64,000 nt of DNA from Trypanosoma brucei (taxonomy: Eukaryota): positions 2,016,001 to 2,080,000 of the forward strand of contig CP000070.1 of the NCBI GenBank assembly GCA_000002445.1, given 5' to 3'. Made by a program: the position numbers and the translations under genes. How positions within the stretch are numbered: the stretch's first letter is position 1; each line of letters starts with the position of its first letter. The notes below the pieces were generated by a model that was not told the origin of the DNA, did not search any database, and saw only the letters and a list, made by a program, of their open reading frames with translations. Positions 2,149 through 47,714 of the stretch are shown here, one piece after another.

Positions 2149-2170
2149 GGGGTTAGGGTTAGGGTTGGGG
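2149..2170 (+). repeat. interstitial telomere-like repeat (TTAGGG)2-3
   Basis: ggggttagggttagggttgggg. TTAGGG is the trypanosomatid telomeric hexamer. Here it is a short internal tract in an AT-rich intergenic region. Confidence 0.6.
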
Positions 2171-3970: not shown

Positions 3971-4001
<31 letters not shown>

Positions 4002-9817: not shown

Positions 9818-10451
9818 TAAATATATTTACATTTTGTTGAGTTCATTTTATCTTCTTTTCATTTTTTTTAATTTGTTTTTTTTATTATTTCACTTTCTGA
9901 ACGCTCAAAGCTACATCTTCTTCCTTCAATATTGTCGTTGTCCTCACTGTCTTGACAACTGTTTTGTTTTTTGTGTTTCGTCTACTATTTTTATTATTGT
10001 TATTGTCGTCTCTTATAACTTGATATCACTCACTTGATGATATTCCGCCACGGCTGCGGAAATTTAAAAAAAAAACAACAACGAACAAACGCAAATACAT
10101 AAATTAATATAAGCGCATACAAAAAGGATGGGAATAATATAAATAAATAAATAAATATATATATATTATAACAAGAAGTAAGTATGAAATGGAATGGATG
10201 GGCGATCTAAAACGAATTCTCACGCACACACAAAAAAAAAAGTGAAAAGAAAAAAATGAAAAAGCAAGGGGAGAATGCTTCAGACATTTTTTATTGCATC
10301 GGCTTCTTCTCACCACACACATAATATATATATATATATATTCCTCAACTGCACTTTTTCACACAATGGGGAAATATGTTAGAAATAAATATACAAATAT
10401 ATACATTTGTCTGCACGTAATCAAAAGGGAAAATGAAGCAGCGGATCACTC

Positions 10452-10490
<39 letters not shown>

Positions 10491-12300: not shown

Positions 12301-12331
<31 letters not shown>

Positions 12332-12444
12332 TGCGCATGTCACGTCAGAAAGGAGAGATAGAGACAACACCAAATTCGAAAAAAAAGAAAGAAAGAAAAT
12401 AGTAACAGTTTTATTCCCTACGCTATACTTTATGACTTCTTGTA

Positions 12445-12482
<38 letters not shown>

Positions 12483-12560
12483 TATTCATATCAATCCGCT
12501 TCACTTCAGTTCGTTCCACCTCCACCTCCACCATTCATCCATTCATTTATTCATTTACTC
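9818..12560. other. 2.7 kb gene-free AT-rich low-complexity intergenic tract (homopolymer runs, (AAT)n at ~10456-10490, (CAA)n at ~10951-10975)
   Basis: No ORF with normal amino-acid composition on either strand. All track ORFs here are poly-I/L/F/N artefacts of AT-rich sequence. Confidence 0.6.
12447..12479. repeat. (TA)n microsatellite
   Basis: Direct reading atatatatat... A further (AC)n lies at 12305-12331. Confidence 0.85.
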
Positions 12561-15500: not shown

Positions 15501-16457
15501 CCTCCGCGTTGGCGCCTCCATCCGGCAAGCTCCAGGGTTTGTTCCGCTGGACGAAACCCTGCGTATGCCCTGTGTAAGTGAACGCTTAAAGATGGACTTC
15601 GGCGCAGGCCCACACTGTTGTTCCTTCACTTTCATGGGGGACATGCGTGAGGCCTCGGAATGAGACAACGCACCGCGACTCACGTGCGAACCAGTGGTTA
15701 CACTACGAACAAATCGCTGAAGTTCAGCTACATCGATTTTCCTACGGTTTGGTGGGGAGCACGTGCGTGATTCCTTCGTGATAACACTGCTTCCCTTATT
15801 ATTTTCCTTGTTGAACCTATTAACACTGTTCGTCCGCGACATATTACCCTTTTCACATATGTTCCGTCTTGTGTGACCCTTTTGTTCACTGGGCGTCGAC
15901 CCATCCTCCACAGCACCGCTTGCCCCAGTCTCAACCACACTCTTTTTGCCTTTTTTCATGACCTTATCTGATGTGCCAGCATGTGATGAAACCGAACTCT
16001 GTTGCGACTGTTTCGCGTTCCGCTGAGTCTGCACAAATATTTTTGTGTTTGAAGGGTCGTAATGGATTCCCTCACGCAACGACGCCACTTCTGATGCATC
16101 TGCACGATCACTTCCCAAGTCAAACAGATGGTCAAAGCGCCCACCATCAACTAAACTAGCAGCGGGAACATCAACAATAGTAAGCGGTATCGGATGCGTT
16201 GGTAGCCGCTTCGGAGAACGCTTACTATATTCACTGGCATCAGCGGTAAGTTCAGAGACACCACTCACATCAGGGTCATTCAGGCCACCCTGCCATTCAC
16301 ATTCAGCTACCATCCTTTTGAGGTAAGCAAGCGACATACAAGGAAACTTTACCCGTGAGTTTGTAGTGATCCGCTGCACTGTTGGTGCCCTATTTTTGAC
16401 TCTTCTTTGTTTTGTAGTCCCCTCTATCGTGGACACACCTTGCTTTCCACTCAACAA
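12561..16457 (-). CDS. hypothetical protein, large Ser/Thr/Arg/Lys-rich basic protein (1298 aa)
   Basis: Uninterrupted 3.9 kb minus-strand ORF with a biased Ser/Thr/basic, low-complexity composition and no recognisable catalytic motif. Its first 53 codons lie inside duplicated block A. Confidence 0.5.
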   Translation of the reverse strand: MLSGKQGVSTIEGTTKQRRVKNRAPTVQRITTNSRVKFPCMSLAYLKRMVAECEWQGGLNDPDVSGVSELTADASEYSKRSPKRLPTHPIPLTIVDVPAASLVDGGRFDHLFDLGSDRADASEVASLREGIHYDPSNTKIFVQTQRNAKQSQQSSVSSHAGTSDKVMKKGKKSVVETGASGAVEDGSTPSEQKGHTRRNICEKGNMSRTNSVNRFNKENNKGSSVITKESRTCSPPNRRKIDVAELQRFVRSVTTGSHVSRGALSHSEASRMSPMKVKEQQCGPAPKSIFKRSLTQGIRRVSSSGTNPGACRMEAPTRRFQKYHSTPNLAHTSPFSRCNSRRVPTSLHVAATKKHTSTAAPLSRQESKKGLAGAALQQRSRDTLGNGQGDVAVKARTASGKLKLWMEEKPKRGHTPMPEGVPSLQPLCSKVNLGRRPTHTKKGKSGAVKTVSDTTATTPTATPKTTVAPVITTMASAMSRVVTETEGTPIAQVEPQTTVASRFERSDLICVSFSDDVVEIAPRAEGDSVPKVRPLPLSMLEVSRRRLEKAVTSHSPTKLSWAVGSRRRKVVARHNVSHTTKCKKRNAARVTRKPRGGPQLGKASSKKQQPQGEKQTEGKGDFTHTTPSKVAAASMQKKRRLTHKKALRKLPKTPPCRLGRSSTAKQNDVHENEPIYPVKKEYGEGCRRKKNNRRRRTMSPDEEGREREMWAALCNPTRGAKNGLGWWQTTTDKEPIAMATDAASVAGRCEGEEIRRVNTPYGDEESAKTAHYPMGKRGSSFRRKNKSWVPATFSGGHLVEMNSGTSVNEDWGNSTDSMHVRDLQVGVSSAMKGPREVTSKRSGKSRTDIGETGYGTYAEKRQRSRTSIRNASSFRFTVSLSTLTTVSTQSANSAQGKSAINCDVLPSGQMAGGKSELDVDEDALSSRSPSARSPQVSTEFFTAVAGAVPPLEQQGKHQIRGLLRSFSTRCSYLTCGEGSPSPEPSNEVSVTWQTHLKEVELGKQGRSEKKAAAPVLNFCRTQGSERAIRCDTMVVCADSMGPKILPRPVNAPAVDPPERSCPKESENNTAVRAASGTNVTCQIRQTASATNGKPSGGRSLSTTSLLAKSRGSSERKRKSGPGISLFGQGSKENMCRDARISRAFYLKAPNALRSVPLVNARPFSYTQTNPTLPCTETNIKTRRRAWSLERIASSKPGSLSYFSNSNASTKSSGGNNNSGSNNPNSGYCSIASSSKRSSVGARSCIKNNNNNNSNNISDSSRCSKGKKNEYAGHDGCSFQRLGNGSLGKLMYGRGVNIA

Positions 16458-19237
16458 CTACGGTGTATCTACCGCAGTGGCGGCGCAGCACACATCAACC
16501 AAAGAATCAGAGAGAAGAGAATGTGTGACAGTAGTGAATGTGGAATGAAGGGGAAGTTTGACAACAACAACAGTGAAATATTACACATGTAAAACAGTTT
16601 GCGAGTAGCCCTGTTGTGGAAAGAAAAGAGGGTACACCGCCCCACACAACACGATATGTCAGCACGCAGTGCAACGGGGAGGGGAATCCGAATAACACTA
16701 CAACGGAAGCACATCACGTGCAATGACAAATATCATCCTTGATGAAACAGGTGACGGTAACATCTCCTCACTTTTCCATAGGAGTACTGTCTCGTTTACT
16801 CATCTTCCACTTGCTCACTTCGATATTAAGATGTGTGAGAAAACCAACCCAACCCAAGGGCAGCATTTCAGTCTCCTTCACAATGACTATCCATCCCACA
16901 ACGCGCCGCTTTTCCATCCCGAAGTCCGGAAGATCGCCGTTACTTCGTAGTGCTTATTGTGCCAACTCCTCACCACCGCAACAGATAATGTGTAAAACGA
17001 TGCCAAGGAAGAACCAACAGAGGTGTAGCGAAGTAAATTGACACACCCAAGCACAAACATATAGCAATTAGGATCAGCTGACGGTATGGCAAACCAAGGG
17101 ACCATGGCTGCCACCAACACACGTCAACTCGTTACCAACCGTGACGATTCTTAGCGGACTCGAGCACCACGACAGGCGTACGCACTGTGTGGATCTTCGG
17201 CGGTATCGGCATGTGGTCGCAGACAATCTCCTTGCAGTCAGTGAGTGTGCATGGGACACCGATTATATCATCCAAGCGTATTGAGCCACACCGTTCCAGC
17301 AGTAACCTCCCAATGGCCTTTTGGGACGCCAGCTTCTTGAGGCCCTCCGCTGCAATAGGGATGGCGCAGAGTCTCAGAACGCAAGACCGGATGGCACTTT
17401 TGTCGGCACTGATTTTTTCGAGTAACTCGCAGTCACTCAAACTCAACTCCTCGAGAGTCTTTATGGCAAATACAGGATCAACGTGTGTCAAGTGCTTGGC
17501 GTTTCTCACACATAGCGACCGCAGTGCTTCACACCGCGAGAGGTCCTCAATTTCCTTATTCCCCACGAAGGGACCCTCGAGTATCAACTTGCTGAGCTCC
17601 GGCAGCGAGGCGATGGCAGCAAATTCGGAGACGCTGCGCAGCCCACAAATATACAATTCCCTCAGTTTCTTCGGCGATGCCAACTTCGATACGTTCAGCT
17701 CCCCACCACAGTACCAGAGTCGAAGGCACGTGAGATTCGTGGCCGACTCACAAATGGTTTCCAATGTGGTGGTGGAAGCAGACCCGCTACACAACCCGAG
17801 GGTCTCCAATGGAGATCTCCGCCCGGGGAACACCACCTCGGGTGAGTCATCCAAAAACAGCCTGCGTAGATTCCGCAGGGATGCGATGGCCTTAGAAGTC
17901 TTTTTACTGAGTGTCGAGCAGAATCGCAGGTCGACTTCGCTCAGGGATGTGCTGTACAGCTTTCCCACACATTCATCAGTCACCGCAGTAGCCCGCAATA
18001 GGAGCTTCTCCAGCGGTGGCGCACAGTCCACAGGGCCAACAATTCTTGCACGACTGCATAGGCTGAGGTCCAACACCTTCAGCGACCTCAGGTTGGTCAA
18101 TGGGCTTATGTCAACAATTTCCTTGTTCCCGCTGAGGATCACCTCCTCGAGCGTAGTGAATGCTGATAGTGCCTTCACATCGGCATCCGTTACACTGCTA
18201 TTCGTCAGGCGCAACACACGAAGTAACGGCAGCTCGGTTCCCCACTCGAACGTAGAACGAACACCCACATTGTCAAGACATAACTCCACCAATTTCTTGC
18301 AGTTTTTCAGTGAGATCTTGCTATGCACCGCCGAGCAATCCCCAAGCCGCAGCACCTTTAACGACACACAATCATGAAAATACTCGACAAGTCCATTGCC
18401 AACGATAAGGGAGGTTCCGGTAATAACCAATCGTCTGAGAATTGGCCACGTCAGTGTGTCAGTGAAGGCATTCATGTTGGGACAGTTCTCAATGGTGATG
18501 CTATCGAGAAACAGGGCATTCCCTAAGAATTTGGCATCCTGTAACATCGAGATATTCTTCATTACAATCTCACGCAGTTTCTCAAGGGACTCCACACCTT
18601 TCTCCCATTCGTTATCCAGCCGTGTACCATGCAGGATAAGCGTTTGGAGGCAGGGGAATTTACCGATACACGACATGTTGGCTACAGCACCCGGCCCGAT
18701 TTCCAACAGGTATAACCCTTGATTGCTGAGTAACTCGAGGTCCAGGCGTCCACAACACCGTCGGAGGCGCAATTCTCCCACATCGCCCTTTAGTGATGAG
18801 AGTTCTTTCAGATTAAACCCCGGGTCGTCGACAACAATCACGTCTGCGGGGTCATCACATTCAAGTGGTGCGTTCTTATCGCAGTTTATAACTGCCTTCC
18901 ACGTGACTGGTCGTCTCCGATATTCATCATACTCTTCCCGCAGCTTTTCGTGTTCCGCTGCCACCATATGGACATGATTGCGCAGTTCTGCGACCTCCTC
19001 CCGCAGCTTCTCCACATCTTCATTGGTTACCATTTGTTCCCCACCTTCAGAGCCGAGTCGCTTCACCATCGCGCCTCCCCCTTTGCCTTTTGTATTTTTG
19101 GTGAGGGAAAGAGTGTGGATTGTGTAAAAAGGTGGAAAGGGCGATTTGAGTGACGTAAGAAAGGAAGGCTTGGGGAAGAAGTGGAGCTGCACACCCAGCG
19201 ACTTTGGACAATACAAACGGGTGTAACACTGTGCTGA
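16297..19237. repeat. segmental duplication block A, copy 1 (LRR gene, its 3' flank, and the 5' end of the downstream gene)
   Basis: About 2.94 kb, near-identical to 43918-46858. The six-frame ORFs are pairwise identical (16366..16548 = 43987..44169, 17187..18377 = 44808..45998, etc., with single substitutions). Homology ends abruptly at ...gtgtaacactgtgctga (19237 / 46858). Confidence 0.85.
17132..19069 (-). CDS. leucine-rich repeat protein, cysteine-containing LRR type (LRRP/ESAG8-like), copy 1
   Basis: About 20 tandem 23-25-aa LRRs of the L..L.L..C..ITD..L form (e.g. LRSLKVLDLSLCSRARIVGPVDCAPPLEKLLL, LTNSSVTDADVKALSAFTTLEEVILSGNKEIVDISPLTNL), preceded by a coiled coil (EDVEKLREEVAELRNHVHMVAAEHEKLREEYDEYRR). 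The track ORF extends to 19363. Start is placed at MVKRLGSE (19069) because the upstream ORF differs between the two copies and reads like a pyrimidine-rich 5'UTR. Confidence 0.65.
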   Translation of the reverse strand: MVKRLGSEGGEQMVTNEDVEKLREEVAELRNHVHMVAAEHEKLREEYDEYRRRPVTWKAVINCDKNAPLECDDPADVIVVDDPGFNLKELSSLKGDVGELRLRRCCGRLDLELLSNQGLYLLEIGPGAVANMSCIGKFPCLQTLILHGTRLDNEWEKGVESLEKLREIVMKNISMLQDAKFLGNALFLDSITIENCPNMNAFTDTLTWPILRRLVITGTSLIVGNGLVEYFHDCVSLKVLRLGDCSAVHSKISLKNCKKLVELCLDNVGVRSTFEWGTELPLLRVLRLTNSSVTDADVKALSAFTTLEEVILSGNKEIVDISPLTNLRSLKVLDLSLCSRARIVGPVDCAPPLEKLLLRATAVTDECVGKLYSTSLSEVDLRFCSTLSKKTSKAIASLRNLRRLFLDDSPEVVFPGRRSPLETLGLCSGSASTTTLETICESATNLTCLRLWYCGGELNVSKLASPKKLRELYICGLRSVSEFAAIASLPELSKLILEGPFVGNKEIEDLSRCEALRSLCVRNAKHLTHVDPVFAIKTLEELSLSDCELLEKISADKSAIRSCVLRLCAIPIAAEGLKKLASQKAIGRLLLERCGSIRLDDIIGVPCTLTDCKEIVCDHMPIPPKIHTVRTPVVVLESAKNRHGW

Positions 19238-20789
19238 CAAGGCATGATTATGTGTCTCATTTCTCAAGTCTACAAGGTGGTTGCTGGTGATGGCATGGTG
19301 TCTATGCGACTGGTCGATTCGTATTCGTTGAGCCATACGCTGACCCATAGATATATAGTTCATTTTCGGTACTTTACCCCGTGGACCAGTGCAGGAGGTT
19401 ACGCACGCGGCGGATAGTGAGATGATTCGTTCTTAGTCAATAATATGTGAAGGAGAGGGGCAAGATAGGATGGGCTGACAGAAGACAGTTTGGGGTGCGT
19501 CACTCAGCAGGTTGGGGATACCTTACTTCACCCTTTACGGTGTCAGTGTTGATGGCTGAACGCCGTTCTGCCTGCCTCTTCTCCTTTTTCTTTTCTCATA
19601 TCTTTTAGCTTCTGGGGTCTAAGCTGCCATGCACTTCCGACTTCTGAACCGCCCATCCACCCATTTTCCCCGCCCCATCCCTTTAACTCGTTTTATACGT
19701 CGGCAAGACATGCTAATGATGAGCACGGCTTATTTCGTTACTCATTTTTGTGCGCTCACTTGTGCGCCACCTCCTGGCGGGTGACCACGCATGAGTGAAT
19801 TGTACGTTTCCTTTCAGTTCCAGTGGAGGTAATATCTTAATGAAAGGGAAGGAGGAGACCGAGAGGGTAAGAGAACGTAAAACATTGGTGAGGTTTGTTC
19901 AGGACGTAAGGAATTGGTAAGGCAAACAGAGAAAAGAAATAGAGATGACGCTGACATCATTAGGAGTAGCTTAGAAGCTCACGTGCCACCTAATGAGCTT
20001 TCCATTTCCCTTCTAAACAGTTTATCTTTTACGAAGCGGGGCGTGATCTACGAGGAAGGCATTGGCATACGATGTTCCTTTCCTCTTTTCCCCTCCTTTC
20101 AAATGCATAAATAATGCCAACGAGCAAAAAGGATTGACTGGGGGGAGGGGGGAGGGATGGAAGGGGGAACAACAAAAGACCGCTATGGATTAGCCAATAG
20201 CGGTGCCCTGAAGGCAATGTTGGGAATTGATGTCATTTCCTTTCATTTGTGTATAATTCCCATACATTACTGTCAATATGTTGGTTTTACCATCGACTGT
20301 TCTCTTTTCTTAACGGGCACAATCTATTCCATTTCACTCCTTTTCATAACCACTCCCCGCCGCTTCCTTTCACATTATTCTTTTCGATGACCCCTCTTCG
20401 GCTTTTCCCTCGTTAAAGCGTTAAATGCCTCCCCCCTCCCCCTTAGCATTGCCCCATTCCTTCCTCTCTTTCTCTTTCTTTTCCGCATTGCTTCGTGTTT
20501 GACTCCTCAACGTTGACAATAATGATAATGGCCAACAGCAGCATCAACAGGAGGAGTTGAGCAGTTGCGTAAATTCATTTCCCCTTCCCTCCGGCCACCA
20601 TTCACCCTCCTTTTTTTTCCCTTTGCTTTTGTTCCCCAGCACAAGTGGGACAAAACTCCCTCCCCATTACCATCACCCACACGCATATTCTCCTCTCAAT
20701 AATATGGAAATTAACATACAAATGTATAAATATAAAATATATGGGTGTAAATATATACGGGGTCATGAAAGGGAACAGGTTTGCAAAAA

Positions 20790-20791
<2 letters not shown>

Positions 20792-20840
<49 letters not shown>
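20792..20840. repeat. (CA)n microsatellite, about 25 units
   Basis: Direct reading: acacacac... across 20792-20840. Confidence 0.9.
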
Positions 20841-20847
<7 letters not shown>

Positions 20848-21477
20848 GCAAAAAGGAGAAAATAGACTAGGTAAAAGGAAACAACTTTTTTATGTTTGGT
20901 TTCATTTTAAAAGGAAAGTGAGTAAAAGAGGAAAGCACCGAGATTGCGTAAAACCGCACCCCGCCACGTGAGTGATACATAAAAAAAAAGTTATGAAGGA
21001 TCTCATATTACCTTCAACGTCAGTGTGGGTAAATAGTAATAATATTAACAATAACAATAAGAGTGATCAAAACAACATTGACAGTAGAAAAAAAGGTATC
21101 ACAGTCGTGGTAGCATAAAATAAGTAAAAGGTAAATAATAACAAAAATAGCAACAGCAAAATTCTTAAAAAAAACTGGATGGGCACAGTGCGCGCATTGG
21201 CCACCGGAGGGAGAAGAAGAAAAGGGACTGGGTATTAAACTGAAGGGGTGCACACATACGCATAAACGAGGAGACACGCACATGGAAGCTCCAAAAAGGA
21301 GGAAAGGATAAAACAACAACAACAACAACAACAACAACAAAATTTTACCCATGAGCAAGTGTGAGAGCTTTCCTGTCTGTTTTATGTTGCAGCAGCAGTA
21401 GCATTAGCATTAGCAGCAACTGCACGTCCATACGTATGATCAAGCATATATACATATTTATTCATTCGGTCATATAA

Positions 21478-21508
<31 letters not shown>

Positions 21509-22135
21509 TATTATGTACGTACGTAAACATGCCTGGAGCGCAGGAACGGAACTCATTAAGTCAGAGGGGGGGGGGGAAGCAGAAAATATCAAATAAAAAA
21601 GAAAAAAAAAGCAACAGTCACATAACAAACCAAACACAAAATAAAGGCTCACAGACTTCCACCCCCTGCTATACCGTCTCGGCTACTGCTACTCGTTCCT
21701 TTCCAGCCGTCCAACCAGTTGAACCGCAAACCAAAAACAAACAAACAGAAACAAAAAGAGAAAGATGTGTGTGTAAGCTATTTCCCCTTTCCCTGCAACA
21801 CCTCTAATCCATATGCACCAACACACACACAAAAGCACAAAAAACAGGGGGAAAAAACGTTGGTAATCCTTTAGTAAGAAACTCAGCGTAAAGCGGAAAG
21901 TGATTAAGGTGCGCGGAAAGGAAAATAATCAACATCCAAGAATGAAGAAGGAAAACAACAACAACAGCAACGCCACCTACCCAATGCGCGAAGCCTAGGT
22001 CAGTATGAAACGATGCGCAGAGTGGAAAAGAAGACAAAAGGCTGGTGATGAAAGGAAATGAAAAATCCAAGAAACCAACGGTGGTGTGCGGCTGCCGTCT
22101 CCATAACACATTAATGCACATGCGAACGGTGTTAG

Positions 22136-22460
22136 CTCCCACGGAACAAGAAGACAACAAGGTATTCGCGCCGGTCCTGTAATGCGTCTCCACTGCTCAA
22201 ATGGCGTCTCACACATGACCCAGTGCAATCGTGTGCACATGAACAACTGGTGTCAATCAGATATTCAGAAGGAAAAATCAAGAGGCCCCGCTTCAGAGGT
22301 TGGTAAATAATATTTTTCATAAGGATGTCTCGCAACTCTCGGACTGTGTGGCGCGGCTGCGGCGTAGAGGAACAGTCATGCATGCAGGACAATCAGCTAC
22401 GGGAATGAATACCTCCTCTACGGGTGCTGGCAAGCATCTTACTGATGGGACAAACATGCA
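22136..22460. repeat. duplication block B, copy 1 (kinesin last ~48 codons plus ~180 bp 3' flank)
   Basis: About 325 bp, near-identical to 43585-43910. ORFs 22132..22392(-) and 43582..43845(-) encode the same 86 aa, and 21804..22193(-) and 43431..43646(-) share their first 18 aa. Homology starts at ctcccacggaacaagaag. Confidence 0.8.
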
Positions 22461-24749
22461 TAGAAGCCGCGCAGCAAATGCCCAGAAAGCGAAGCTCAGT
22501 GAAGTAAATACCGTAACTCTATAGATACGCCTGGCGCGAGCACGCATTCGTGGCTCGCTTGCAGGTGTACGTCCCACCTGTCCTTCATTGACACCGTCTT
22601 TACGCCGCAGACAGAGGTGCGGCACTATTCGACTCAGGGAAACAGGTGGTGAAGAGCACAGTGAATCCTGAAAACCTCCCAGGAACGTATCATCCGATTC
22701 CCTTTCGTGGTGCAGCGTACTCAAACGGGAAGAGCACAATCCAACAATCCGTGGATCTCTGGCTGGCGTATCTGAAAGCTCGGGGCTGTATGAAGTGGCG
22801 CCAAAACTTCCTAACCGACTACTCATTGTTGAAAGCTGCTTTTCTAGCCACTTGTTACGTACAGTTAGCCTCCTTACTTTTGCCAGTAGTTCGGCCTTCG
22901 TCTCCGTACGACCCACGACAGGTCGGTTCTGCACCCTCTTGGCGCATTTAGCAAACTGTAGTGTTGAAAGGGTTTCGGTTGCGTCCTTTAGATCCGGGGA
23001 TATGGTGCAGAGGAGCGCTGTCACGGCATTCCCGCCGATACTTTCCTGCAACAACCGTGTGAGTTTAGAGTCACGATACGGTATGTGCACGGCATCCCCT
23101 CCCTTAGGGTTCGTGGTGAGTTTCCTAATAACATTCCCCAGCAGAGTTAAGGAAAGATTAATGTGTCGTGCCTCTTCTAGTCGCTTTCCGTTAGCCTTCG
23201 TATCGGCTACCCTCTCGGAACCGGCCAAGTCCACCAGAGTCGCTAATGATCGAATTTCTGTTATTACTAATGGCGGCTGCGGTGCTAAACCCAACGCGCC
23301 CTGACCCTTATTCACCACAGGTGCCTCCCGTTGCCGTAATGCAATGTAAAAGAATAGATGAGAGCGCCCACTCCGCTGGTTCACTGCTGTCGAACCGACA
23401 TGACGCTGCACTGCTGCCCATTTGAGAACATGTAGCGCTTCCTCGGCATCACGCACCGGATGCCATGAAAGGCCTTCCACAACAACTCCCACATTTGCAA
23501 CGTCCCGTATTTTCAGTGTGGCACTGGACGCGGTGGATTTGGCGCGACGGGAGGCCGTACCAACTGCGACCCGATTCTGACACACTACCCCTTTTGCATC
23601 GATTGATTGGCCCCCAGCCCCCGTTTCATTGGTTGTGTCGCAGCCCTTTTTGGAAGTTTTGGGTTTCAAAATAAACTGCAATAAATCGTACATGTCTTCC
23701 TTGTAGATTTCCATTGCACTCACTTCCACTGCATAACCCCACTCGCGTGCAGGTTGTGAGGCCTTGCCCCCAGACATTGCTTCCGTTTTTCTCATCTGAC
23801 TTCGCTCCTGCTCTGTGGCCGTGGTTGCCGAGGACGTTTGATGTAAACCCTTGTTTTCCAACCGAGCAAACAACTCCTGCAGCATTCGCGGTAATATCCC
23901 CGCCTCATCCGGGTCAGCCAAGCGCTCAGGCAAGCCACCCGCAGGTCCAAGCATTGTATGAGTTTTACCGCTTCCGCTCTGTCCATAGCAGAGGATAGTT
24001 CCATTGAATCCTTCCAGCACATTCTGCAGAATAGGGCGACCGACGCGGTCCATTATTTCGTTCTGCGTGGTGTCACCTCCGAGTACGGCATCGAAGGCGA
24101 AGAAGCTGCCGCGCTCCTCTATTTCCCGCTGCTGCGAATTGCTGTCGAAGGGACTCCCAGAGGCGAAACCCTGAGCCTTCGGCTGCACACTAAACTCTTT
24201 CGGAGGGGGCACGTATTCAATTAAACCGTCTTCCTTGTGCAGCCGGCAACAGGTTGGTTTTACAGAGCCACGGAGTGCTGGTCGTACACGAACCGAGACG
24301 TTGATAGTTCCGCGCTTCATAGTGAACACCGCTGGGGTGTTTTTCGCGCCAACTAAAAGAGACGCCGCCTCTGTCTTTGGTGTTACCTGCGTATTTAGGC
24401 CGTTAACAGCGGCACCCCCGTACATTGTTTGGTCACTTTTCGTGAAGTCTGTTACTCCTGTTTTATCTGGGAGCTGCTCTACCTCAGGTGCAACGTGTAA
24501 ACTCAAGCGTCCCCCAAGAGAACTCAAATTCGACGGCAGGGAGCAAAAAGCCGGTTTGCTGAGGCGCGGCGTGTAGTTATCAGGTGCTGGTGTCTCTTCA
24601 AGGAATGAGGAGCTTCCAGGGACACTGTGAGGCCGGTGAAGAAAGTGGCTTTTCTCTAGAAGATCTGCACCAACGGAGGGGCAACGCTCTATTGTCCCAA
24701 GGGAGGGTTCTGGCATGGGAATAGTCGAATTTAAATGAATCCCATTCAT
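22317..24749 (-). CDS. kinesin motor protein
   Basis: Motor-domain signatures are present: P-loop GQSGSGKTHTM, switch I NQRSGRSH and switch II DLAGSE, plus LLGNVI and a neck/coiled coil (LLAKVRRLTVRNKWLEKQL). The motor is central and has loop insertions. The last 48 codons and 3' flank lie in repeat segment B. Confidence 0.8.
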   Translation of the reverse strand: MNGIHLNSTIPMPEPSLGTIERCPSVGADLLEKSHFLHRPHSVPGSSSFLEETPAPDNYTPRLSKPAFCSLPSNLSSLGGRLSLHVAPEVEQLPDKTGVTDFTKSDQTMYGGAAVNGLNTQVTPKTEAASLLVGAKNTPAVFTMKRGTINVSVRVRPALRGSVKPTCCRLHKEDGLIEYVPPPKEFSVQPKAQGFASGSPFDSNSQQREIEERGSFFAFDAVLGGDTTQNEIMDRVGRPILQNVLEGFNGTILCYGQSGSGKTHTMLGPAGGLPERLADPDEAGILPRMLQELFARLENKGLHQTSSATTATEQERSQMRKTEAMSGGKASQPAREWGYAVEVSAMEIYKEDMYDLLQFILKPKTSKKGCDTTNETGAGGQSIDAKGVVCQNRVAVGTASRRAKSTASSATLKIRDVANVGVVVEGLSWHPVRDAEEALHVLKWAAVQRHVGSTAVNQRSGRSHLFFYIALRQREAPVVNKGQGALGLAPQPPLVITEIRSLATLVDLAGSERVADTKANGKRLEEARHINLSLTLLGNVIRKLTTNPKGGDAVHIPYRDSKLTRLLQESIGGNAVTALLCTISPDLKDATETLSTLQFAKCAKRVQNRPVVGRTETKAELLAKVRRLTVRNKWLEKQLSTMSSRLGSFGATSYSPELSDTPARDPRIVGLCSSRLSTLHHERESDDTFLGGFQDSLCSSPPVSLSRIVPHLCLRRKDGVNEGQVGRTPASEPRMRARARRIYRVTVFTSLSFAFWAFAARLLCMFVPSVRCLPAPVEEVFIPVADCPACMTVPLRRSRATQSESCETSL

Positions 24750-39950: not shown

Positions 39951-40006
<56 letters not shown>
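39931..40006. repeat. (TACC)5 followed by an (AC)n microsatellite, about 27 units
   Basis: Direct reading: ctacctacctacctacctacc then acacac... to about 40006. Confidence 0.9.
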
Positions 40007-40013
<7 letters not shown>

Positions 40014-40392
40014 ATTCACATATTAATATATATATATACATATATAAATGCACGGAAATATAGGGATTGATAGACAAGCAGAATCGTGCTGTCGTTACTT
40101 GACTGACTCAAGACCAATGGAAAGTAAGATGAAGCGGAGGATCTTCCCTCCCTTTCCTTCTGCATCCCCTCCAGTCTCCACATTTTCACTTCACTCTTCA
40201 TTCATTTTCCTCTTCTCAGCCTCTTACTTCTTCCTCCCCTTTAACCTTCTTTTCCCATGTTTTCTTTTCCACTCGCATCCCCATTCCCCCTTCAGCTTCC
40301 TTTTTCTTCCTTCTTAAATATTCCCTTTTACCTCTCCTTTTCCCTTTTCGTTAGTTTCACATCTCCATTTCAAAAGTTTGTGCCGTGTTTGA

Positions 40393-43240: not shown

Positions 43241-43248
43241 GGAAAACG
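43241..43248 (-). terminator. RNA polymerase III T-run terminator immediately 3' of tRNA-Ala
   Basis: On the minus strand the tRNA 3' end is followed directly by CGTTTTCC. A run of 4 or more T residues right after a tRNA is the canonical Pol III terminator. Confidence 0.5.
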
Positions 43249-43320
43249 TGGACGAGTAGGGGATCAAACCCTAGGCCTTCCGTATGCGAAACGGATGCTC
43301 TACCACTGAGCTACACGCCC
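43249..43320 (-). tRNA. tRNA-Ala: tRNA-Ala (anticodon CGC)
   Basis: Folded by hand from the reverse complement: GGGCGTG TA GCTC AGTGGTA GAGC A TCCGT TTCGCAT ACGGA AGGCC TAGGG TTTGATC CCCTA CTCGTCC A. Acceptor stem pairs at 6 of 7 positions and includes the G3:U70 Ala identity pair. D-stem GCTC/GAGC. Anticodon stem TCCGT/ACGGA with loop TTCGCAT (anticodon CGC). T-stem TAGGG/CCCTA with loop TTTGATC. Discriminator A73. No encoded CCA. Confidence 0.8.
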
Positions 43321-43584
43321 CGTAGTGCAATCGGTGCGCTGCATTCGTTTACCGTTGCGTGGCTACAAGCCATAACCGCCACAAGCCACAACATAAAGTG
43401 CGGGGGAGACACAACCGATGCTATCCATCATTACCACCTCCATTCCTTCCCCACCCATCTTGGTTTTGCACACGTGGCTTCTACGGAAGGCTTTTCCACC
43501 ACATATACGGCTGCATTTGCATCGAAAGCATGCGTTGTTGGGTACCAGGCAGCTGCGTATTCTCCAGTTAGTAATGCAATTTCA

Positions 43585-43910
43585 CAAACTCCCACGGAAC
43601 AAGAAGACAACAAGGTATTCGCGCCGGTCCTGTAATGTGTCTCCACTGCTCAAATGGCGTCTCACACATGACCCAGTGCAATCGTGTGCACATGAACAAC
43701 TGGTGTCAATCAGATATTCAGAAGGAAAAATCAAGAGGCCCCGCTTCAGGGGTTGGTAAATAATATTTTTCATAAGGATGTCTCGCAACTCTCGGACTGT
43801 GTGGCGCGGCTGCGGCGTAGAGGAACAGTCATGCATGCAGGACAATCAGCTACGGGAATGAATACCTCCTCTACGGGTGCTGGCAAGCATCTTACTGATA
43901 GGACAAACAT
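43585..43910. repeat. duplication block B, copy 2 (fused to block A copy 2)
   Basis: See copy 1. In this copy the kinesin-derived codons are detached from any motor domain. Confidence 0.8.
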
Positions 43911-44078
43911 GCGTGGAACACATTCAGCTACCATCCTTTTGAGGTAAGCAAGCGACATACAAGGAAACTTTACCCGTGAGTTTGTAGTGATCCACTGCAC
44001 TGTTGGTGCCCTATTTTTGACTCTTCTTTGTTTTGTAGTCCCCTCTATCGTGGACACACCTTGCTTTCCACTCAACAA
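43770..44078 (-). pseudogene. chimeric gene fragment: first 53 codons of the 1298-aa Ser-rich gene fused in frame to the last ~49 codons of the kinesin
   Basis: The 102-aa ORF starts MLSGKQGVSTIEGTTKQRRVKNRAPTVQ.ITTNSRVKFPCMSLAYLKRMVAEC, which matches the N-terminus of the CDS at 16457. It ends ...FVPSVRCLPAPVEEVFIPVADCPACMTVPLRRSRATQSESCETSL, which is identical to the C-terminus of the kinesin CDS ending at 22317. The fusion lies exactly at the B|A duplication junction (about 43910-43918). Confidence 0.55.
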
Positions 44079-46858
44079 CTACGGTGTATCTACCGCAGTG
44101 GCGGCGCAGCACACATCAACCAAAGAATCAGAGAGAAGAGAATGTGTGACAGTAGTGAATGTGGAATGAAGGGGAAGTTTGACAACAACAACAGTGAAAT
44201 ATTACACATGTAAAACAGTTTGCGAGTAGCCCTGTTGTGGAAAGAAAAGAGGGTACACCGCCCCACACAACACGATATGTCAGCACGCAGTGCAACGGGG
44301 AGGGGAATCCGAATAGCACTACAACGGAAGCACATCACGTGCAATGACAAATATCATCCTTGATGAAACAGGTGACGGTAACATCTCCTCACTTTTCCAT
44401 AGGAGTACTGTCTCGTTTACTCATCTTCCACTTGCTCACTTCGATATTAAGATGTGTGAGAAAACCAACCCAACCCAAGGGCAGCATTTCAGTCTCCTTC
44501 ACAATGACTGTCCATCCCACATCACGCCGCTTTTCCATCCCGAAGTCCGGAAGATCTCCGTTACTTCGTAGTGCTTATTGTGCCAACTCCTCACCACCGC
44601 AACAGATAATGTGTAAAACGATGCCAAGGAAGAACCAACAGAGGTGTAGCGAAGTAAATTGACACACCCAAGCACAAACATATAGCAATTAGGATCAGCT
44701 GACGGTATGGCAAACCAAGGGACCATGGCTGCCACCAACACACGTCAACTCGTTACCAACCGTGACGATTCTTAGCGGACTCGAGCACCACGACAGGCGT
44801 ACGCACTGTGTGGATCTTCGGCGGTATCGGCATGTGGTCGCAGACAATCTCCTTGCAGTCAGTGAGTGTGCATGGGACACCGATTATATCATCCAAGCGT
44901 ATTGAGCCACACCGTTCCAGCAGTAACTTCCCAATGGCCTTTTGGGACGCCAGCTTCTTGAGGCCCTCCGCTGCAATAGGGATGGCGCAGAGTCTCAGAA
45001 CGCAAGACCGGATGGCACTTTTGTCGGCACTGATTTTTTCGAGTAACTCGCAGTCACTCAAACTCAACTCCTCGAGAGTCTTTATGGCAAATACAGGATC
45101 AACGTGTGTCAAGTGCTTGGCGTTTCTCACACATAGCGACCGCAGTGCTTCACACCGCGAGAGGTCTTCAATTTCCTTATTCCCCACGAAGGGACCCTCG
45201 AGTATCAACTTGCTGAGCTCCGGCAGCGAGGCGATGGCAGCAAATTCGGAGACGCTGCGCAGCCCACAAATATACAATTCCCTCAGTTTCTTCGGCGATG
45301 CCAACTTCGATACGTTCAGCTCCCCACCACAGTACCAGAGTCGAAGGCACGTGAGATTCGTGGCCGACTCACAAATGGTTTCCAATGTGGTGGTGGAAGC
45401 AGACCCGCTACACAACCCGAGGGTCTCCAATGGAGATCTCCGCCCGGGGAACACCACCTCGGGTGAGTCATCCAAAAACAGCCTGCGTAGATTCCGCAGG
45501 GATGCGATGTCCTTAGAAGTCTTTTTACTGAGTGTCGAGCAGAATCGCAGGTCGACTTCGCTCAGGGATGTGCTGTACAGCTTTCCCACACATTCATCAG
45601 TCACCGCAGTAGCCCGCAATAGGAGCTTCTCCAGCGGTGGCGCACAGTCCACAGGGCCAACAATTCTTGCACGACTGCATAGGCTGAGGTCCAACACCTT
45701 CAGCGACCTCAGGTTGGTCAATGGGCTTATGTCAACAATTTCCTTGTTCCCGCTGAGGATCACCTCCTCGAGCGTAGTGAATGCTGATAGTGCCTTCACA
45801 TCGGCATCCGTTACGCCGCTATTCGTCAGGCGCAACACACGAAGTAACGGCAGCTCGGTTCCCCACTCGAACGTAGAACGAACACCCACATTGTCAAGAC
45901 ATAACTCCACCAATTTCTTGCAGTTTTTCAGTGAGATCTTGCTATGCACCGCCGAGCAATCCCCAAGCCGCAGCACCTTTAACGACACACAATCATGAAA
46001 ATACTCGACAAGTCCATTGCCAACGATAAGGGAGGTTCCGGTAATAACCAATCGTCTGAGAATTGGCCACGTCAGTGTGTCAGTGAAGGCATTCATGTTG
46101 GGACAGTTCTCAATGGTGATGCTATCGAGAAACAGGGCATTCCCTAAGAATTTGGCATCCTGTAACATCGAGATATTCTTCATTACAATCTCACGCAGTT
46201 TCTCAAGGGACTCCACACCTTTCTCCCATTCGTTATCCAGCCGTGTACCATGCAGGATAAGCGTTTGGAGGCAGGGGAATTTACCGATACACGACATGTT
46301 GGCTACAGCACCCGGCCCGATTTCCAACAGGTATAACCCTTGATTGTTGAGTAGCTCGAGGTCCAGGCGTCCACAACACCGTCGGAGGCGCAATTCTCCC
46401 ACATCGCCCTTTAGTGATGAGAGTTCTTTCAGATTAAACCCCGGGTCGTCGACAACAATCACGTCTGCGGGGTCATCACATTCAAGTGGTGCGTTCTTAT
46501 CGCAGTTTATAACTGCCTTCCACGTGACTGGTCGTCTCCGATATTCATCATACTCTTCCCGCAGCTTTTCGTGTTCCGCTGCCACCATATGGACATGATT
46601 GCGCAGTTCTGCGACCTCCTCCCGCAGCTTCTCCACATCTTCATTGGTTACCATTTGTTCCTCACCTTCAGAGCGGCTTCGCTTCGCCATCGCGCCTCCC
46701 CCTTTGCCTTTTGTATTTTTGGTGAGGGAAAGAGTGTGGATTGTGTAAAAAGGTGGAAAGGGCGATTTGAGTGACGTAAGAAAGGAAGGCTTGGGGAAGA
46801 AGTGGAGCTGCACACCCAGCGACTTTGGACAATACAAACGGGTGTAACACTGTGCTGA
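43918..46858. repeat. segmental duplication block A, copy 2
   Basis: See copy 1. Preceded directly by block B copy 2. The junction sequence is ...acaaacatgc|gtggaa|cacattcagctaccatcc... Confidence 0.85.
44753..46690 (-). CDS. leucine-rich repeat protein, cysteine-containing LRR type (LRRP/ESAG8-like), copy 2
   Basis: About 99 % amino-acid identity to copy 1 over 646 aa, with a handful of substitutions (MAKRSRSEGEEQ vs MVKRLGSEGGEQ, SLRNL, SVTPL). Intact reading frame. Start at 46690 (cat at 46688-46690). The track ORF extends to 46963 into copy-specific upstream sequence. Confidence 0.65.
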   Translation of the reverse strand: MAKRSRSEGEEQMVTNEDVEKLREEVAELRNHVHMVAAEHEKLREEYDEYRRRPVTWKAVINCDKNAPLECDDPADVIVVDDPGFNLKELSSLKGDVGELRLRRCCGRLDLELLNNQGLYLLEIGPGAVANMSCIGKFPCLQTLILHGTRLDNEWEKGVESLEKLREIVMKNISMLQDAKFLGNALFLDSITIENCPNMNAFTDTLTWPILRRLVITGTSLIVGNGLVEYFHDCVSLKVLRLGDCSAVHSKISLKNCKKLVELCLDNVGVRSTFEWGTELPLLRVLRLTNSGVTDADVKALSAFTTLEEVILSGNKEIVDISPLTNLRSLKVLDLSLCSRARIVGPVDCAPPLEKLLLRATAVTDECVGKLYSTSLSEVDLRFCSTLSKKTSKDIASLRNLRRLFLDDSPEVVFPGRRSPLETLGLCSGSASTTTLETICESATNLTCLRLWYCGGELNVSKLASPKKLRELYICGLRSVSEFAAIASLPELSKLILEGPFVGNKEIEDLSRCEALRSLCVRNAKHLTHVDPVFAIKTLEELSLSDCELLEKISADKSAIRSCVLRLCAIPIAAEGLKKLASQKAIGKLLLERCGSIRLDDIIGVPCTLTDCKEIVCDHMPIPPKIHTVRTPVVVLESAKNRHGW

Positions 46859-47714
46859 GAATGCTTTCACCTTCTCTCTGCTTAACTCTCCCCATGCATT
46901 TGGCCGTGAGCACCAGATATCCCTTCGGATGCTGAGAATGGCCTCTGAGGAACTGTGCACCACTTCTTGGCAAGCGTAGATTCCACCGGAAGTTATTTAG
47001 TGGTTGCGCAAAAATAGGATTGGCGAATGTTTCCGTAGATTGATGCTTTGTTCCCCAGATCTTTCTCTAGTATAAAGTATGTTGAGCACTTACAAATTCG
47101 TACGTTATGTCAAAACCTTCTCATATTTGGTAATTCAGGAGCTTTTTACAAAAAATCTCATTTACCAACACTGTTTTGCATTTTGCAGAGAAGGCAAATA
47201 ACCGCAAAAAATTCTACGCAGACCACATGAGCTTTGGTGGGGCGTAATTTGTACATGTAAAACGTGTACATGGAGTTTACAGTTGTTAAACACATGCACT
47301 GGAAAGCCTCAAACAATAGGAGCAGCAGTAACAAGTAGACGTGCTTGTAATGATGGATGAAAAAGATGTGCTTGTAGCGGAGTGTTGCCGCCCAGTAAAG
47401 CAAGTACCGCCCAAAGATTAATGACCCCCCTTCCCCGAAGATACCGGTGTCGTTACCGCCAAGCGAACCAGTTAAAGCAAAAACAAAAAAAACACAAAAA
47501 AGCGAAGTAAGGCGTACATGCTTACGCTTGTAAAGGGATATAATACATAAAAAATGTAAAAAAGAAGTATGGTAAGTTAAAGGAGGCGGGGGGGGGGAGA
47601 GGGAAAGGAACAAAGGACTGGGTAAATCGTTGTCGTAACAGCTTCTTGTGGTAACTGAGGGCGGGATAACTCAAGAAAAGCAACCTTTTAAAAACTCATC
47701 GGGGTATCTCTGCA

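What the first reader, a model, noticed from the sequence alone, without database searches (positions are those of the whole stretch)
43585..46858. Composite segmental duplication: LRR-gene block fused to a non-adjacent kinesin-tail block
Two non-adjacent pieces of an upstream locus have been copied and fused.

What the sequence shows:
- Block A (16297-19237) carries a complete LRR protein gene, its 3' flank and the first 53 codons of the next gene. It is copied at 43918-46858 at about 99 % identity.
- Block B (22136-22460) carries the kinesin's last 48 codons plus 3' flank. It is copied at 43585-43910.
- In the source locus, A and B are separated by 2.9 kb of unique sequence (19237-22136), with A to the left of B.
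- In the copy, the right end of B is joined directly to the left end of A. That is the junction a tandem duplication or an excised circle of the 16297-22460 interval would create, yet the 2.9 kb spacer is absent.

At the junction, ...acaaacatgc|gtggaa|cacattcagc, only about 6 unmatched bases separate the two blocks. The near-identity points to a recent event.

This is not a simple retro-copy or tandem array. It looks like the footprint of a replication-template-switch or circle-reintegration event in a trypanosome core chromosome, giving an extra expressed-looking LRRP paralog.
Basis: seen in the sequence. Interest (0 to 1): 0.75.

Follow-up and report, generated by a model that had tools for sequence, protein, structure and literature searches.

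The report
Two-piece LRR gene duplication in trypanosome
A 3.3-kb patchwork copy of a leucine-rich-repeat gene, stitched to the tail of a nearby kinesin gene, really does sit 21 kb from its source on Trypanosoma brucei chromosome 7, but it is an old, shared, already-annotated paralogue kept near-identical by gene conversion, so it is a tidy but fairly ordinary case of genome evolution.

Summary
Block A (16298-19237) recurs at 43919-46858: 2940 bp, 18 mismatches, no gaps. Block B (22136-22465) recurs at 43589-43918. In the copy the two blocks are joined in permuted order, and all outer edges are sharp.

The window is T. brucei brucei TREU927 chromosome 7, and both LRRP genes are annotated there. 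The same junctions occur in independently assembled T. b. gambiense DAL972 and T. equiperdum IVM-t1 (all three), and J3 in T. equiperdum OVI. This rules out an assembly or haplotype artefact.

- The "6 unmatched bases" are block B continuing with point substitutions, so the join is blunt and has no filler.
- Only 13 codons of the next gene are copied, not 53.
- Near-identity does not mean the event is recent. The duplication predates the split of the T. brucei subspecies. The copies share strain-specific variants (14 sites, against 6 locus-specific), which is the mark of gene conversion.

The copy carries a complete LRRP mRNA-processing unit. It lies 268 bp upstream of a tRNA-Ala gene and is flanked by an imperfect 11/13-nt direct repeat.

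The mechanism is not resolved. A replication-based multi-template switch is my best guess. A tandem-duplication or circle intermediate is nearly as likely. Interest is low to moderate.

The parts
16298..19237 (-). Block A, source copy. On the minus strand it holds 168 nt of LRRP upstream sequence (polypyrimidine tracts and AGs), the LRRP1 CDS, 797 nt of 3' UTR/intergenic sequence including gene X's 5' region, and the first 13 codons of gene X.
17132..19069 (-). LRRP1 coding sequence (645 aa from the Met shared by both copies). TREU927 annotates an over-extended 743-aa ORF reaching 19363 (AAZ12772).
19238..22135 (-). 2898-bp unique spacer between the source blocks. It is AT-rich and low-complexity, with (TG)n, (TA)n and (TTG)n runs, and is probably the kinesin 3' UTR and intergenic region. 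It is absent from the copy.
22136..22465 (-). Block B, source copy: the last 49 codons of the kinesin gene (CDS 22317-24749) plus 181 nt of its 3' flank. The tail is conserved in the T. congolense orthologue, so this is the original.
43919..46858 (-). Block A, derived copy (18 mismatches to the source).
44753..46690 (-). LRRP2 coding sequence: 645 aa, intact, identical to TREU927 AAZ12779. It differs from LRRP1 at 8 residues, 4 of them within residues 2-10.
43589..43918 (-). Block B, derived copy (5 mismatches over 330 bp). It is joined blunt to the end of block A at 43918|43919.
43770..43958 (-). Chimeric in-frame mini-ORF (62 aa) made by the A|B junction: 13 codons of gene X plus 49 codons of kinesin tail. 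Its ATG is GTG in the IVM-t1 and DAL972 copies, so it is probably a relic and not a gene.
46860..46870 (.). Upstream member of an imperfect direct repeat flanking the insert (AATGCTTTCAC on the + strand), 1 nt from junction J1.
43573..43585 (.). Downstream member of the flanking repeat (AATGCAATTTCAC on the + strand), 3 nt from junction J3. Together the two look like a target-site duplication (11 of 13 positions, with a 2-nt indel).
43248..43320 (-). tRNA-Ala(CGC) gene on the same strand as the polycistronic unit, 268 bp beyond the end of the inserted copy. It gives context for the insertion site.

Best explanation
This is a real, single-origin duplicative insertion on T. brucei chromosome 7. 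Two non-adjacent pieces of the kinesin-LRRP-geneX locus were copied in the same orientation. One is 2.94 kb and holds the whole LRRP gene with its own trans-splicing signals, its 3' UTR, and the next gene's splice/5' region plus 13 codons. The other is 330 bp and holds the kinesin tail plus 181 nt of its 3' flank. They were joined blunt in permuted order (A then B in the direction of transcription) and inserted 21 kb upstream in the same polycistronic unit, between a 1318-aa gene and a tRNA-Ala gene.

Block A is a self-contained mRNA-processing unit: its own polypyrimidine/AG signals upstream, and the next gene's signals downstream to direct polyadenylation. The copy therefore yields a functional second LRRP wherever it lands. 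This last step is inferred from the known coupling of trans-splicing and polyadenylation in trypanosomes.

The event predates the split of T. b. brucei, T. b. gambiense and T. equiperdum. Since then the two copies have been kept about 99.4 % identical by patchy, bidirectional gene conversion.

For how it formed, my preferred but unproven mechanism is one replication-based event with serial template switches (MMBIR/FoSTeS-like). The order of switches would be locus 2 to 19237, copy down to 16298, jump to 22465, copy down to 22136, then return to locus 2 about 12 nt behind the point of departure. That return would leave the short flanking direct repeat.

Confidence differs by part: about 0.95 that it is a real, old, gene-converted composite duplication, and about 0.4 that it arose by a one-step template switch. 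The single figure given (0.5) is a compromise between the two.
For: Shown:
- Block limits, identity and sharp edges; no residual homology in the flanks.
- The proteins are an LRR protein and a kinesin.
- The organism is T. brucei, and both LRRPs are annotated in TREU927.
- Identical J1, J2 and J3 in IVM-t1 (gapless locus, de novo PacBio plus MiSeq assembly) and in DAL972 contigs. J3 is also present in OVI.
- The kinesin tail is conserved in T. congolense, so locus 1 is the donor.
- J2 is blunt, with no filler and 0 bp of microhomology.
- Gene conversion: 14 sites where both 927 copies differ from both DAL972 copies, against 6 locus-specific sites. The N-terminal variant block sits at locus 2 in 927 and DAL972 but mostly at locus 1 in OVI (4 of its 5 variant sites). 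Block B shows the same kind of pattern.
- Paralogue divergence is 0.61 %, lower than the roughly 0.8-1.0 % between 927 and DAL972 in the unique flanks (mismatch counts).
- The LRRP ORF is intact in every reliable copy.
- The 168 nt upstream of the ATG, with polypyrimidine tracts, is identical in both copies.
- A flanking 11/13-nt direct repeat is seen in 0.14-2.9 % of random control positions.

From the literature: T. brucei has no detectable NHEJ, and its end joining uses 5-20 bp microhomologies (PMC3045614). A blunt junction is therefore more easily produced by a polymerase switching templates than by ligating ends.
Against: - No junction shows the 2-5 nt perfect microhomology typical of MMBIR. 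J2 has none, and J1 has only an imperfect GCaTT/GCcTT patch.
- The empty target site is not available, so J1 and J3 cannot be fully analysed.
- The flanking repeat is imperfect, offset by 1 and 3 nt from the junctions, and was found post hoc.
- One 'mutation' next to J2 is also present in DAL972's own kinesin gene. It therefore cannot be counted as a breakpoint-associated error.
- Part of the evidence for concerted evolution rests on draft assemblies, where near-identical repeats can be blended. IVM-t1 was Pilon-polished. DAL972 has gaps inside both copies.
- No expression data were examined.
Confidence: 0.5

Rival explanations
1. Tandem-duplication or circular intermediate. The A|B junction arose first, either as the head-to-tail joint of a 6.17-kb tandem duplication of 22465-16298 at locus 1 or as an excised or rolling circle of that interval. 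A stretch spanning the joint was then copied or integrated at locus 2. This stretch was either just A|B, or a longer A-B-spacer-A-B piece later collapsed by homologous recombination. Any tandem copy at locus 1 was lost by unequal crossing-over.
For: The junction 16298|22465 is exactly the joint expected from a tandem duplication or circle of one contiguous interval. Tandem duplication and array collapse are common in T. brucei (PMC1855330, listed; title and abstract only). In the DAL972 scaffold, locus 2 reads LRRP 5' part - gap - 1.1 kb of the locus-1 spacer - A - B. If real, that would be the predicted A-B-spacer-A-B intermediate.
Against: - It needs three events rather than one.
- No assembly shows a tandem at locus 1.
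- IVM-t1 and TREU927 have a simple A|B at locus 2.
- The DAL972 arrangement is best read as a chimeric contig. Its start overlaps the end of the locus-1 contig by 138 identical bases that include DAL-specific SNPs. Its 5' part carries the locus-1 N-terminal haplotype, and about 850 bp of identical repeat lie between the diagnostic sites.
- Forming and integrating a circle by end joining would need microhomology in T. brucei, and J2 has none. No direct repeats flank the source interval that could excise a circle by homologous recombination.
Confidence: 0.3
2. Chimeric retro-copy. The reverse transcriptase of an ingi-type retroposon, priming at a staggered nick, copied a piece of the polycistronic pre-mRNA ending in the kinesin 3' UTR. 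It then jumped to a second position on the RNA (gene X codon 13) and copied back through LRRP. The result is A-B in sense orientation, flanked by a roughly 12-bp target-site duplication.
For: - The order 5'-A-B-3' in the direction of transcription is what a template jump during target-primed reverse transcription gives.
- The A|B junction is blunt.
- The flanking imperfect repeat is 11-13 nt long, close to the fixed 12-bp duplication of ingi-clade elements (PMC3820030).
Against: - There is no A or T run of 7 or more within 60 nt of any junction, and no spliced-leader sequence anywhere in the window.
- Block A contains unprocessed intergenic sequence.
- The repeat is imperfect and not flush with the insert. 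The bases between it and the insert are TTT in the sense orientation, the opposite of a poly(A) remnant.
- The site does not fit the published ingi6 target motif. The Tbingi (ingi4) motif was not available to test.
Confidence: 0.07
3. Two old paralogous loci in which long gene-conversion tracts create the appearance of freshly copied blocks. On this reading there was no composite insertion.
For: Gene conversion demonstrably acts on these copies.
Against: - All outer edges are abrupt, and the flanks show no residual similarity above shuffled controls.
- Block B is the end of a kinesin gene, and there is no kinesin paralogue at locus 2.
- Block A ends 13 codons into gene X, and nothing of the rest of gene X is present at locus 2.
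- The A|B joint has no counterpart at locus 1.
Confidence: 0.02
4. Assembly artefact: a collapsed or chimeric contig, or two haplotypes joined.
For: Near-identical 3-kb repeats are a classic cause of misassembly. The DAL972 scaffold is indeed mis-joined within this repeat.
Against: The same three novel junction sequences, embedded in the same unique flanks, occur in assemblies made from different strains, technologies and laboratories: TREU927, IVM-t1 and DAL972, plus J3 in OVI. The two copies differ at 18 + 5 positions and carry different flanks.
Confidence: 0.01

Closest known systems
[quoted passage not shown]
   Same: Duplicated protein-coding units inside a polycistronic transcription unit. 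The copies are more alike within a strain than orthologues are between strains. The genes involved are specific to the T. brucei lineage.
   Different: This one is not tandem: 21 kb and seven unique genes lie between the copies. It is built from two non-adjacent source pieces in permuted order. It is shared by all subspecies examined and is not subspecies-specific. It is not listed in the gambiense paper's text or tables as searched.
Complex genomic rearrangements from serial replication template switching (FoSTeS/MMBIR), as described in human and yeast genomes (own knowledge)
   Same: Several breakpoints. Short templated segments taken from within a few tens of kb. Same-strand copying. Little or no homology at the joints. 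A small duplication at the re-entry point.
   Different: The usual 2-5 nt perfect microhomology is absent at the one junction that can be fully analysed. No such event has, to my knowledge, been documented in a trypanosome core chromosome.
One-sided MMEJ-based ectopic gene conversion and MMEJ deletions in T. brucei (Glover, Jun & Horn 2011, PMC3045614)
   Same: An experimentally shown route by which T. brucei duplicates an ectopic segment into a broken site without homology on both sides.
   Different: Those events use homologous recombination on one side and 5-20 bp of microhomology on the other. Here neither flank shows homology and J2 has 0 bp of microhomology.
L1-type template-switch chimeric retro-copies, and ingi/RIME retroposition with 12-bp target-site duplication (PMC3820030)
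   Same: Two-part insert in sense orientation. The 3'-most RNA piece sits at the 3' end. Flanking short direct repeat of about 12 nt.
   Different: No poly(A), no 5' retroposon signature, an imperfect and offset repeat, and unprocessed intergenic sequence inside the insert.

Membership tests
Segmental (dispersed, intrachromosomal) duplication | Non-allelic copies of at least 1 kb with at least 90 % identity, embedded in different unique flanks | tested here: met
   2940 bp at 99.39 % plus 330 bp at 98.5 %. The flanks are unrelated.
Segmental (dispersed, intrachromosomal) duplication | Present in the organism and not only in one assembly | tested here: met
   The same junctions occur in TREU927, IVM-t1 and DAL972; J3 also occurs in OVI.
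Concerted evolution by gene conversion | Variants shared by both paralogues within a strain but differing between strains, in a duplication older than the strain split | tested here: met
   14 strain-shared against 6 locus-shared sites for 927 versus DAL972. The haplotype block is at locus 2 in 927 and DAL972 but mostly at locus 1 in OVI (4 of 5 sites). Block B shows the same kind of pattern. Caveat: these are draft assemblies.
FoSTeS/MMBIR complex rearrangement | Two or more template segments from nearby loci joined in one insertion | tested here: met
   A (19237-16298) and B (22465-22136) come from the same 6.2-kb interval and are inserted 21 kb away.
FoSTeS/MMBIR complex rearrangement | Microhomology of about 2-5 nt or more at the breakpoints | tested here: not met
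   J2 has 0 nt. J1 has an imperfect 4-of-5 patch set 1 nt back. J3 cannot be assessed without the empty site.
FoSTeS/MMBIR complex rearrangement | Excess point mutations next to the breakpoints | tested here: inconclusive
   In 927 there are 2 substitutions within 6 nt of J2. One of them is also present in DAL972's source gene.
T. brucei MMEJ junction | 5-20 bp microhomology, possibly imperfect, shared by both parents at the joint (PMC3045614) | tested here: not met
   At J2 the parents share only an in-register GCTG patch 6 nt before the joint, and it was not the switch point.
Extrachromosomal circle reintegration or tandem-duplication joint | Head-to-tail joint of one contiguous interval | tested here: met
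   16298|22465.
Extrachromosomal circle reintegration or tandem-duplication joint | The full content of the interval is present in the copy, or an intermediate array is retained in some strain | tested here: not met
   The 2898-bp spacer is absent in 927 and IVM-t1. The DAL972 arrangement that includes spacer is best explained as a chimeric contig.
ingi/RIME-mediated retroposition | 12-bp target-site duplication flush with the insert | tested here: inconclusive
   An 11/13-nt imperfect repeat, offset 1 and 3 nt from the junctions and seen in 0.14-2.9 % of random control positions. The 12-bp rule is from PMC3820030.
ingi/RIME-mediated retroposition | 3' poly(dA) tail | tested here: not met
   No A or T run of 7 or more within 60 nt of any junction.
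ingi/RIME-mediated retroposition | Conserved endonuclease recognition motif upstream of the duplication (ingi4 type for Tbingi) | not testable with these tools
   The ingi4 consensus is only in a figure that is not held. The ingi6 motif TTTTxxxxxA|A is not matched (sequence).
Leucine-rich repeat protein (LRRP) of T. brucei | LRR domain hits; annotated as LRRP | tested here: met
   Pfam LRR_14 and LRR_4 above their cut-offs for both copies. Both are identical to AAZ12772 and AAZ12779, 'LRRP, putative'.

The most novel reading that the evidence does not exclude
The insert is a chimeric retro-copy made by the ingi retroposon machinery acting in trans on polycistronic pre-mRNA. The reverse transcriptase would have jumped between templates, from the kinesin 3' end to gene X/LRRP, and left a roughly 12-nt target-site duplication. 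If so, this would be the first documented functional retrogene-like duplication in a trypanosome, and a new route for gene duplication in genomes that lack individual promoters.
Probability: 0.07. Interest if true: 0.6.

Novelty: new member of a known kind. Interest (0 to 1): 0.25.

Why it matters
The finding gives a clean, datable example of how a trypanosome gains a working gene copy without a promoter. The duplicated piece runs from one trans-splicing signal to the next, so it is expressed wherever it lands in a polycistronic unit.

It also shows concerted evolution acting across 21 kb of unique genes. That is a warning against dating duplications in this genome by identity.

The blunt, permuted junction is a natural footprint of a repair or replication pathway not accounted for by the microhomology-mediated joining seen in T. 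brucei experiments.

There are practical consequences too. The two LRRP genes cannot be told apart by most short reads or RNAi fragments. The TREU927 743-aa model of LRRP1 is probably over-extended. The DAL972 reference is mis-joined at this repeat.

None of this changes the current understanding of trypanosome biology.

Tried and rejected
- Exact-sequence look-ups of the window's LRRPs and of the TREU927 entries found no contig. Other strains had to be reached through the kinesin, the cyclin and the DAL972/IVM-t1 LRRP entries.
- Smith-Waterman search for residual homology between the spacer or source flanks and the flanks of the copy found nothing above shuffles. This rejects the 'old paralogous loci' reading.
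- The T. cruzi syntenic locus (L011) keeps DSP-597aa-Vta1-TYW1-kinesin. It gave no tblastn hit for LRRP or gene X, so it could not supply an empty site or show whether LRRP1 is ancestral there.
- The homologue search for LRRP found only the T. brucei cluster and a 27 % T. congolense paralogue. No outgroup orthologue is available.
- No spliced-leader sequence and no poly(A) tract were found. The SL sequence used was recalled from memory.
- Rfam and tRNA scans found only the tRNA-Ala gene.
- Literature searches found no description of this duplication. They covered LRRP with chromosome 7 and duplication, segmental duplication with gene conversion, the gambiense genome paper, a 2026 T. brucei pangenome preprint, and the protein accession numbers.
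- The DAL972 'third' LRRP copy was considered as a real A-B-spacer-A-B intermediate. I rejected it as most likely a chimeric contig.
- The Logan contig L012 covers locus 1 only and does not span J2.


Full report

Yes. Self-BLAST of the window returns two direct matches.
- 16298-19237 against 43919-46858: 2940 bp, 18 mismatches, no gaps, 99.39 %.
- 22136-22459 against 43589-43912: 324 bp, 3 mismatches.

Register-by-register comparison shows identity collapsing to random at all four outer edges. The only other repeats in the window are microsatellites and a 185-bp internal repeat in a large gene. Smith-Waterman alignment of the spacer and source flanks against the flanks of the copy gives scores no higher than shuffled controls. 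These are therefore sharply bounded copied blocks, not the conserved cores of two old paralogous loci.

**2. Anatomy, read on the coding (minus) strand**

All long ORFs lie on the minus strand, so the window is one polycistronic unit read from right to left. The gene order, with Pfam assignments, is:
- a 2395-aa gene;
- a 1318-aa gene (47715-51671);
- LRRP2 (44753-46690);
- the junction relic;
- tRNA-Ala (43248-43320);
- a CYC2-like cyclin;
- a dual-specificity phosphatase;
- a 588-aa gene;
- Vta1;
- TYW1;
- a kinesin (22317-24749);
- the 2.9-kb low-complexity spacer;
- LRRP1 (17132-19069);
- gene X (12561-16337).

Block A contains 168 nt upstream of the LRRP start codon, with polypyrimidine tracts and AG dinucleotides, identical in the two copies. 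The annotated product in other strains is 1257 aa and starts at MSLAYLKR.

Block B is the last 49 codons of the kinesin plus 181 nt of 3' flank.

In the copy, the end of A is fused in frame to the start of B. This gives a 62-aa chimeric ORF (43958-43770).

**3. The junction**

The six 'unmatched' bases are block B. On the minus strand the copy reads GAATGTG|TTCCACGCATG in this strain and GAATGTG|TTCTACGCATG in IVM-t1 and DAL972. The source kinesin reads TTCTATGCATG, and DAL972's own kinesin reads TTCTACGCATG.

The join is therefore blunt. There are no filler bases and there is no microhomology between the two parents at the switch point.

**4. Organism, and whether it is an artefact**

The kinesin is 100 % identical to the T. 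equiperdum protein. The cyclin is exactly TREU927 AAZ12778. The two LRRP ORFs are exactly TREU927 AAZ12772 (743-aa model) and AAZ12779 (645 aa). The window is T. b. brucei TREU927 chromosome 7, or something indistinguishable from it. Both LRRP genes are already annotated as 'LRRP, putative'.

I fetched both loci from three other assemblies.
- **T. equiperdum IVM-t1.** The assembly is de novo PacBio plus MiSeq, in 45 contigs (PMC6395869). Its locus 2 (L006) is gapless and collinear with the window from 52568 to 39991, and includes A and B. Its locus 1 (L005) is collinear too.
- **T. b. gambiense DAL972.** Contigs span J1, and separately J2 plus J3 (L002).
- **T. equiperdum OVI.** A contig reaches 32 bp into the B copy across J3 (L004). 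Its locus 1 (L001) is collinear.

The three junction sequences are the same in all of them. Misassembly and haplotype joining are excluded, and the event had a single origin before these lineages separated.

**5. Which locus is the donor?**

The C-terminal tail of the T. congolense kinesin orthologue aligns with the T. brucei tail: FWA...PAPVEEVF.PV.DCPAC. Block B is therefore native to the kinesin gene. Block A continues without a break into the rest of gene X only at locus 1. Locus 1 is the source and locus 2 the derived copy.

**6. Age and concerted evolution**

This does not hold.
- *Strain-shared versus locus-shared sites.* In an alignment of all available copies, 14 sites have the same base in both TREU927 copies and a different base in both DAL972 copies. 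Only 6 sites are locus-specific across the two strains. Five of those 6 form one cluster in the first 10 codons: MVKRLGSEGGEQ at locus 1 against MAKRSRSEGEEQ at locus 2.
- *Movement between loci.* In OVI, most of the 'locus 2' N-terminal haplotype (4 of its 5 variant sites, MAKRSRSEGGEQ) sits at locus 1.
- *Block B.* It shows strain-shared variants as well.
- *Divergence.* Paralogue divergence within TREU927 is 0.61 %. That is lower than the roughly 0.8-1.0 % substitution divergence between TREU927 and DAL972 in the adjacent unique DNA (mismatch counts).

This is the signature of patchy gene conversion in both directions, a process well documented for T. brucei gene arrays (PMC1855330, listed).

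Caveat: draft assemblies can blend near-identical repeats. IVM-t1's two copies are suspiciously alike after Pilon polishing. The TREU927/DAL972 comparison rests on separately assembled contigs that still differ at the diagnostic cluster.

**7. Is the extra LRRP functional?**

The ORF is intact in both TREU927 copies, in IVM-t1 copy 2, in OVI copy 1 and in the complete DAL972 copy. IVM-t1 copy 1 has a 1-bp deletion in a G run, which is probably an assembly error.

In TREU927 the two proteins differ at 8 residues, against 2 synonymous changes. The numbers are too small to say more than 'not strongly constrained'.

The copy retains its own upstream splice signals, and the downstream gene's signals that would direct its polyadenylation. 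I therefore infer that it is expressed. That step rests on the known coupling of trans-splicing and polyadenylation and was not tested here.

The chimeric mini-ORF has lost its ATG (now GTG) in IVM-t1 and DAL972. It is best seen as a relic.

**8. How did it form?**

What the sequence shows:
- two same-strand segments from one 6.2-kb interval;
- permuted order;
- a blunt internal joint;
- no homology at the insertion flanks;
- insertion 856 bp after the stop codon of the upstream gene and 268 bp before a tRNA-Ala gene;
- an imperfect direct repeat bracketing the insert. On the + strand it reads AATGCTTTCAC at 46860-46870 and AATGCAATTTCAC at 43573-43585. A match this good occurs at 0.14-2.9 % of random control positions, depending on how strictly position is constrained.

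T. brucei lacks detectable NHEJ, and its end joining uses 5-20 bp microhomologies (PMC3045614). The blunt J2 does not fit that.

I therefore favour a polymerase-driven serial template switch (MMBIR/FoSTeS-like), with re-entry about 12 nt behind the departure point to explain the flanking repeat. My confidence in this is only about 0.4, because the expected short perfect microhomologies are not there.

The main rival, at about 0.3, is a tandem-duplication or circular intermediate of 22465-16298. It explains the head-to-tail joint naturally but needs more steps.

The DAL972 scaffold looks at first like the predicted A-B-spacer-A-B intermediate. However, its extra piece overlaps the end of the locus-1 contig by 138 identical bases that include DAL-specific SNPs. 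It also carries the locus-1 N-terminal haplotype. It is most likely a contig that switched copies inside the repeat.

A retro-copy made by ingi reverse transcriptase with a template jump would give the same A-B order and a 12-bp target duplication (PMC3820030). There is, however, no poly(A), no spliced leader and no flush duplication. I give it about 0.07.

**9. Comparison with what is known, and verdict**

This is a dispersed segmental duplication with a complex breakpoint, followed by concerted evolution. Both phenomena are known in T. brucei and elsewhere. The gene pair is already annotated.

I found no paper describing the composite structure. It is a new, well-resolved example of a known kind of event and not a new kind of thing.

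Its value is as a natural footprint of a repair or replication pathway not accounted for by the MMEJ seen in experiments, and as a caution about dating duplications by identity in this genome. Interest is about 0.25.

Noticed in passing
window 43248-43320 (minus strand): A lone tRNA-Ala(CGC) gene sits inside the Pol II polycistronic unit, between the inserted copy and the cyclin gene, 268 bp from the insert. Internal tRNA genes can mark transcription or replication boundaries, which may be relevant to why the insertion landed here.
   Followed up: partly
window 19070-19363 (minus strand); TREU927 AAZ12772, DAL972 CBH12995: The 743-aa gene model of LRRP1 is probably over-extended by 98 codons. 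The extension runs through a polypyrimidine-rich 5' region and crosses the duplication boundary. The paralogue, and short-read (Logan) gene calls from other T. brucei-group sequencing runs, start at the shared internal Met (645 aa).
   Followed up: partly
L002 8886-13395 and L003 14485-14584 (T. b. gambiense DAL972, FN554970.1): The DAL972 chromosome 7 scaffold places locus-1 spacer plus a full LRRP at locus 2 and leaves a gap in locus 1. The contig ends overlap by 138 identical bases. This looks like a repeat-induced chimeric contig or mis-scaffold in that reference.
   Followed up: yes
window 19041-19065: Five substitutions lie within 25 bp at the very start of the LRRP CDS, and all change amino acids (V2A, L5S, G6R, G10E). 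They form the only block that stays locus-specific between TREU927 and DAL972. In OVI, 4 of the 5 sit at the other locus.
   Followed up: partly
window 53698-53882 and 54142-54326: A 185-bp direct repeat at 95 % identity lies inside the 2395-aa ORF (52788-59975), which carries only a faint SHIPPO-repeat hit on record for its DAL972 counterpart. It is probably an internal protein repeat.
   Followed up: no
window 20789-20847 and 39953-40014: (TG)n microsatellites in two intergenic regions account for the remaining self-BLAST hits. The 2.9-kb spacer also holds (TA)n, (TTG)n and C-run tracts.
   Followed up: no
L005 around 9990-10000 (IVM-t1 locus 1): Single-base deletions in homopolymer runs truncate LRRP1 to a 523-aa model in the IVM-t1 annotation. 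They are likely long-read indel errors and not real pseudogenisation.
   Followed up: partly
L003 12290 (DAL972 kinesin), equivalent to window 22460: DAL972's kinesin carries the base otherwise seen only in the locus-2 copy, changing Cys to Arg in the tail. This may be gene conversion from the relic back into the functional kinesin gene.
   Followed up: no
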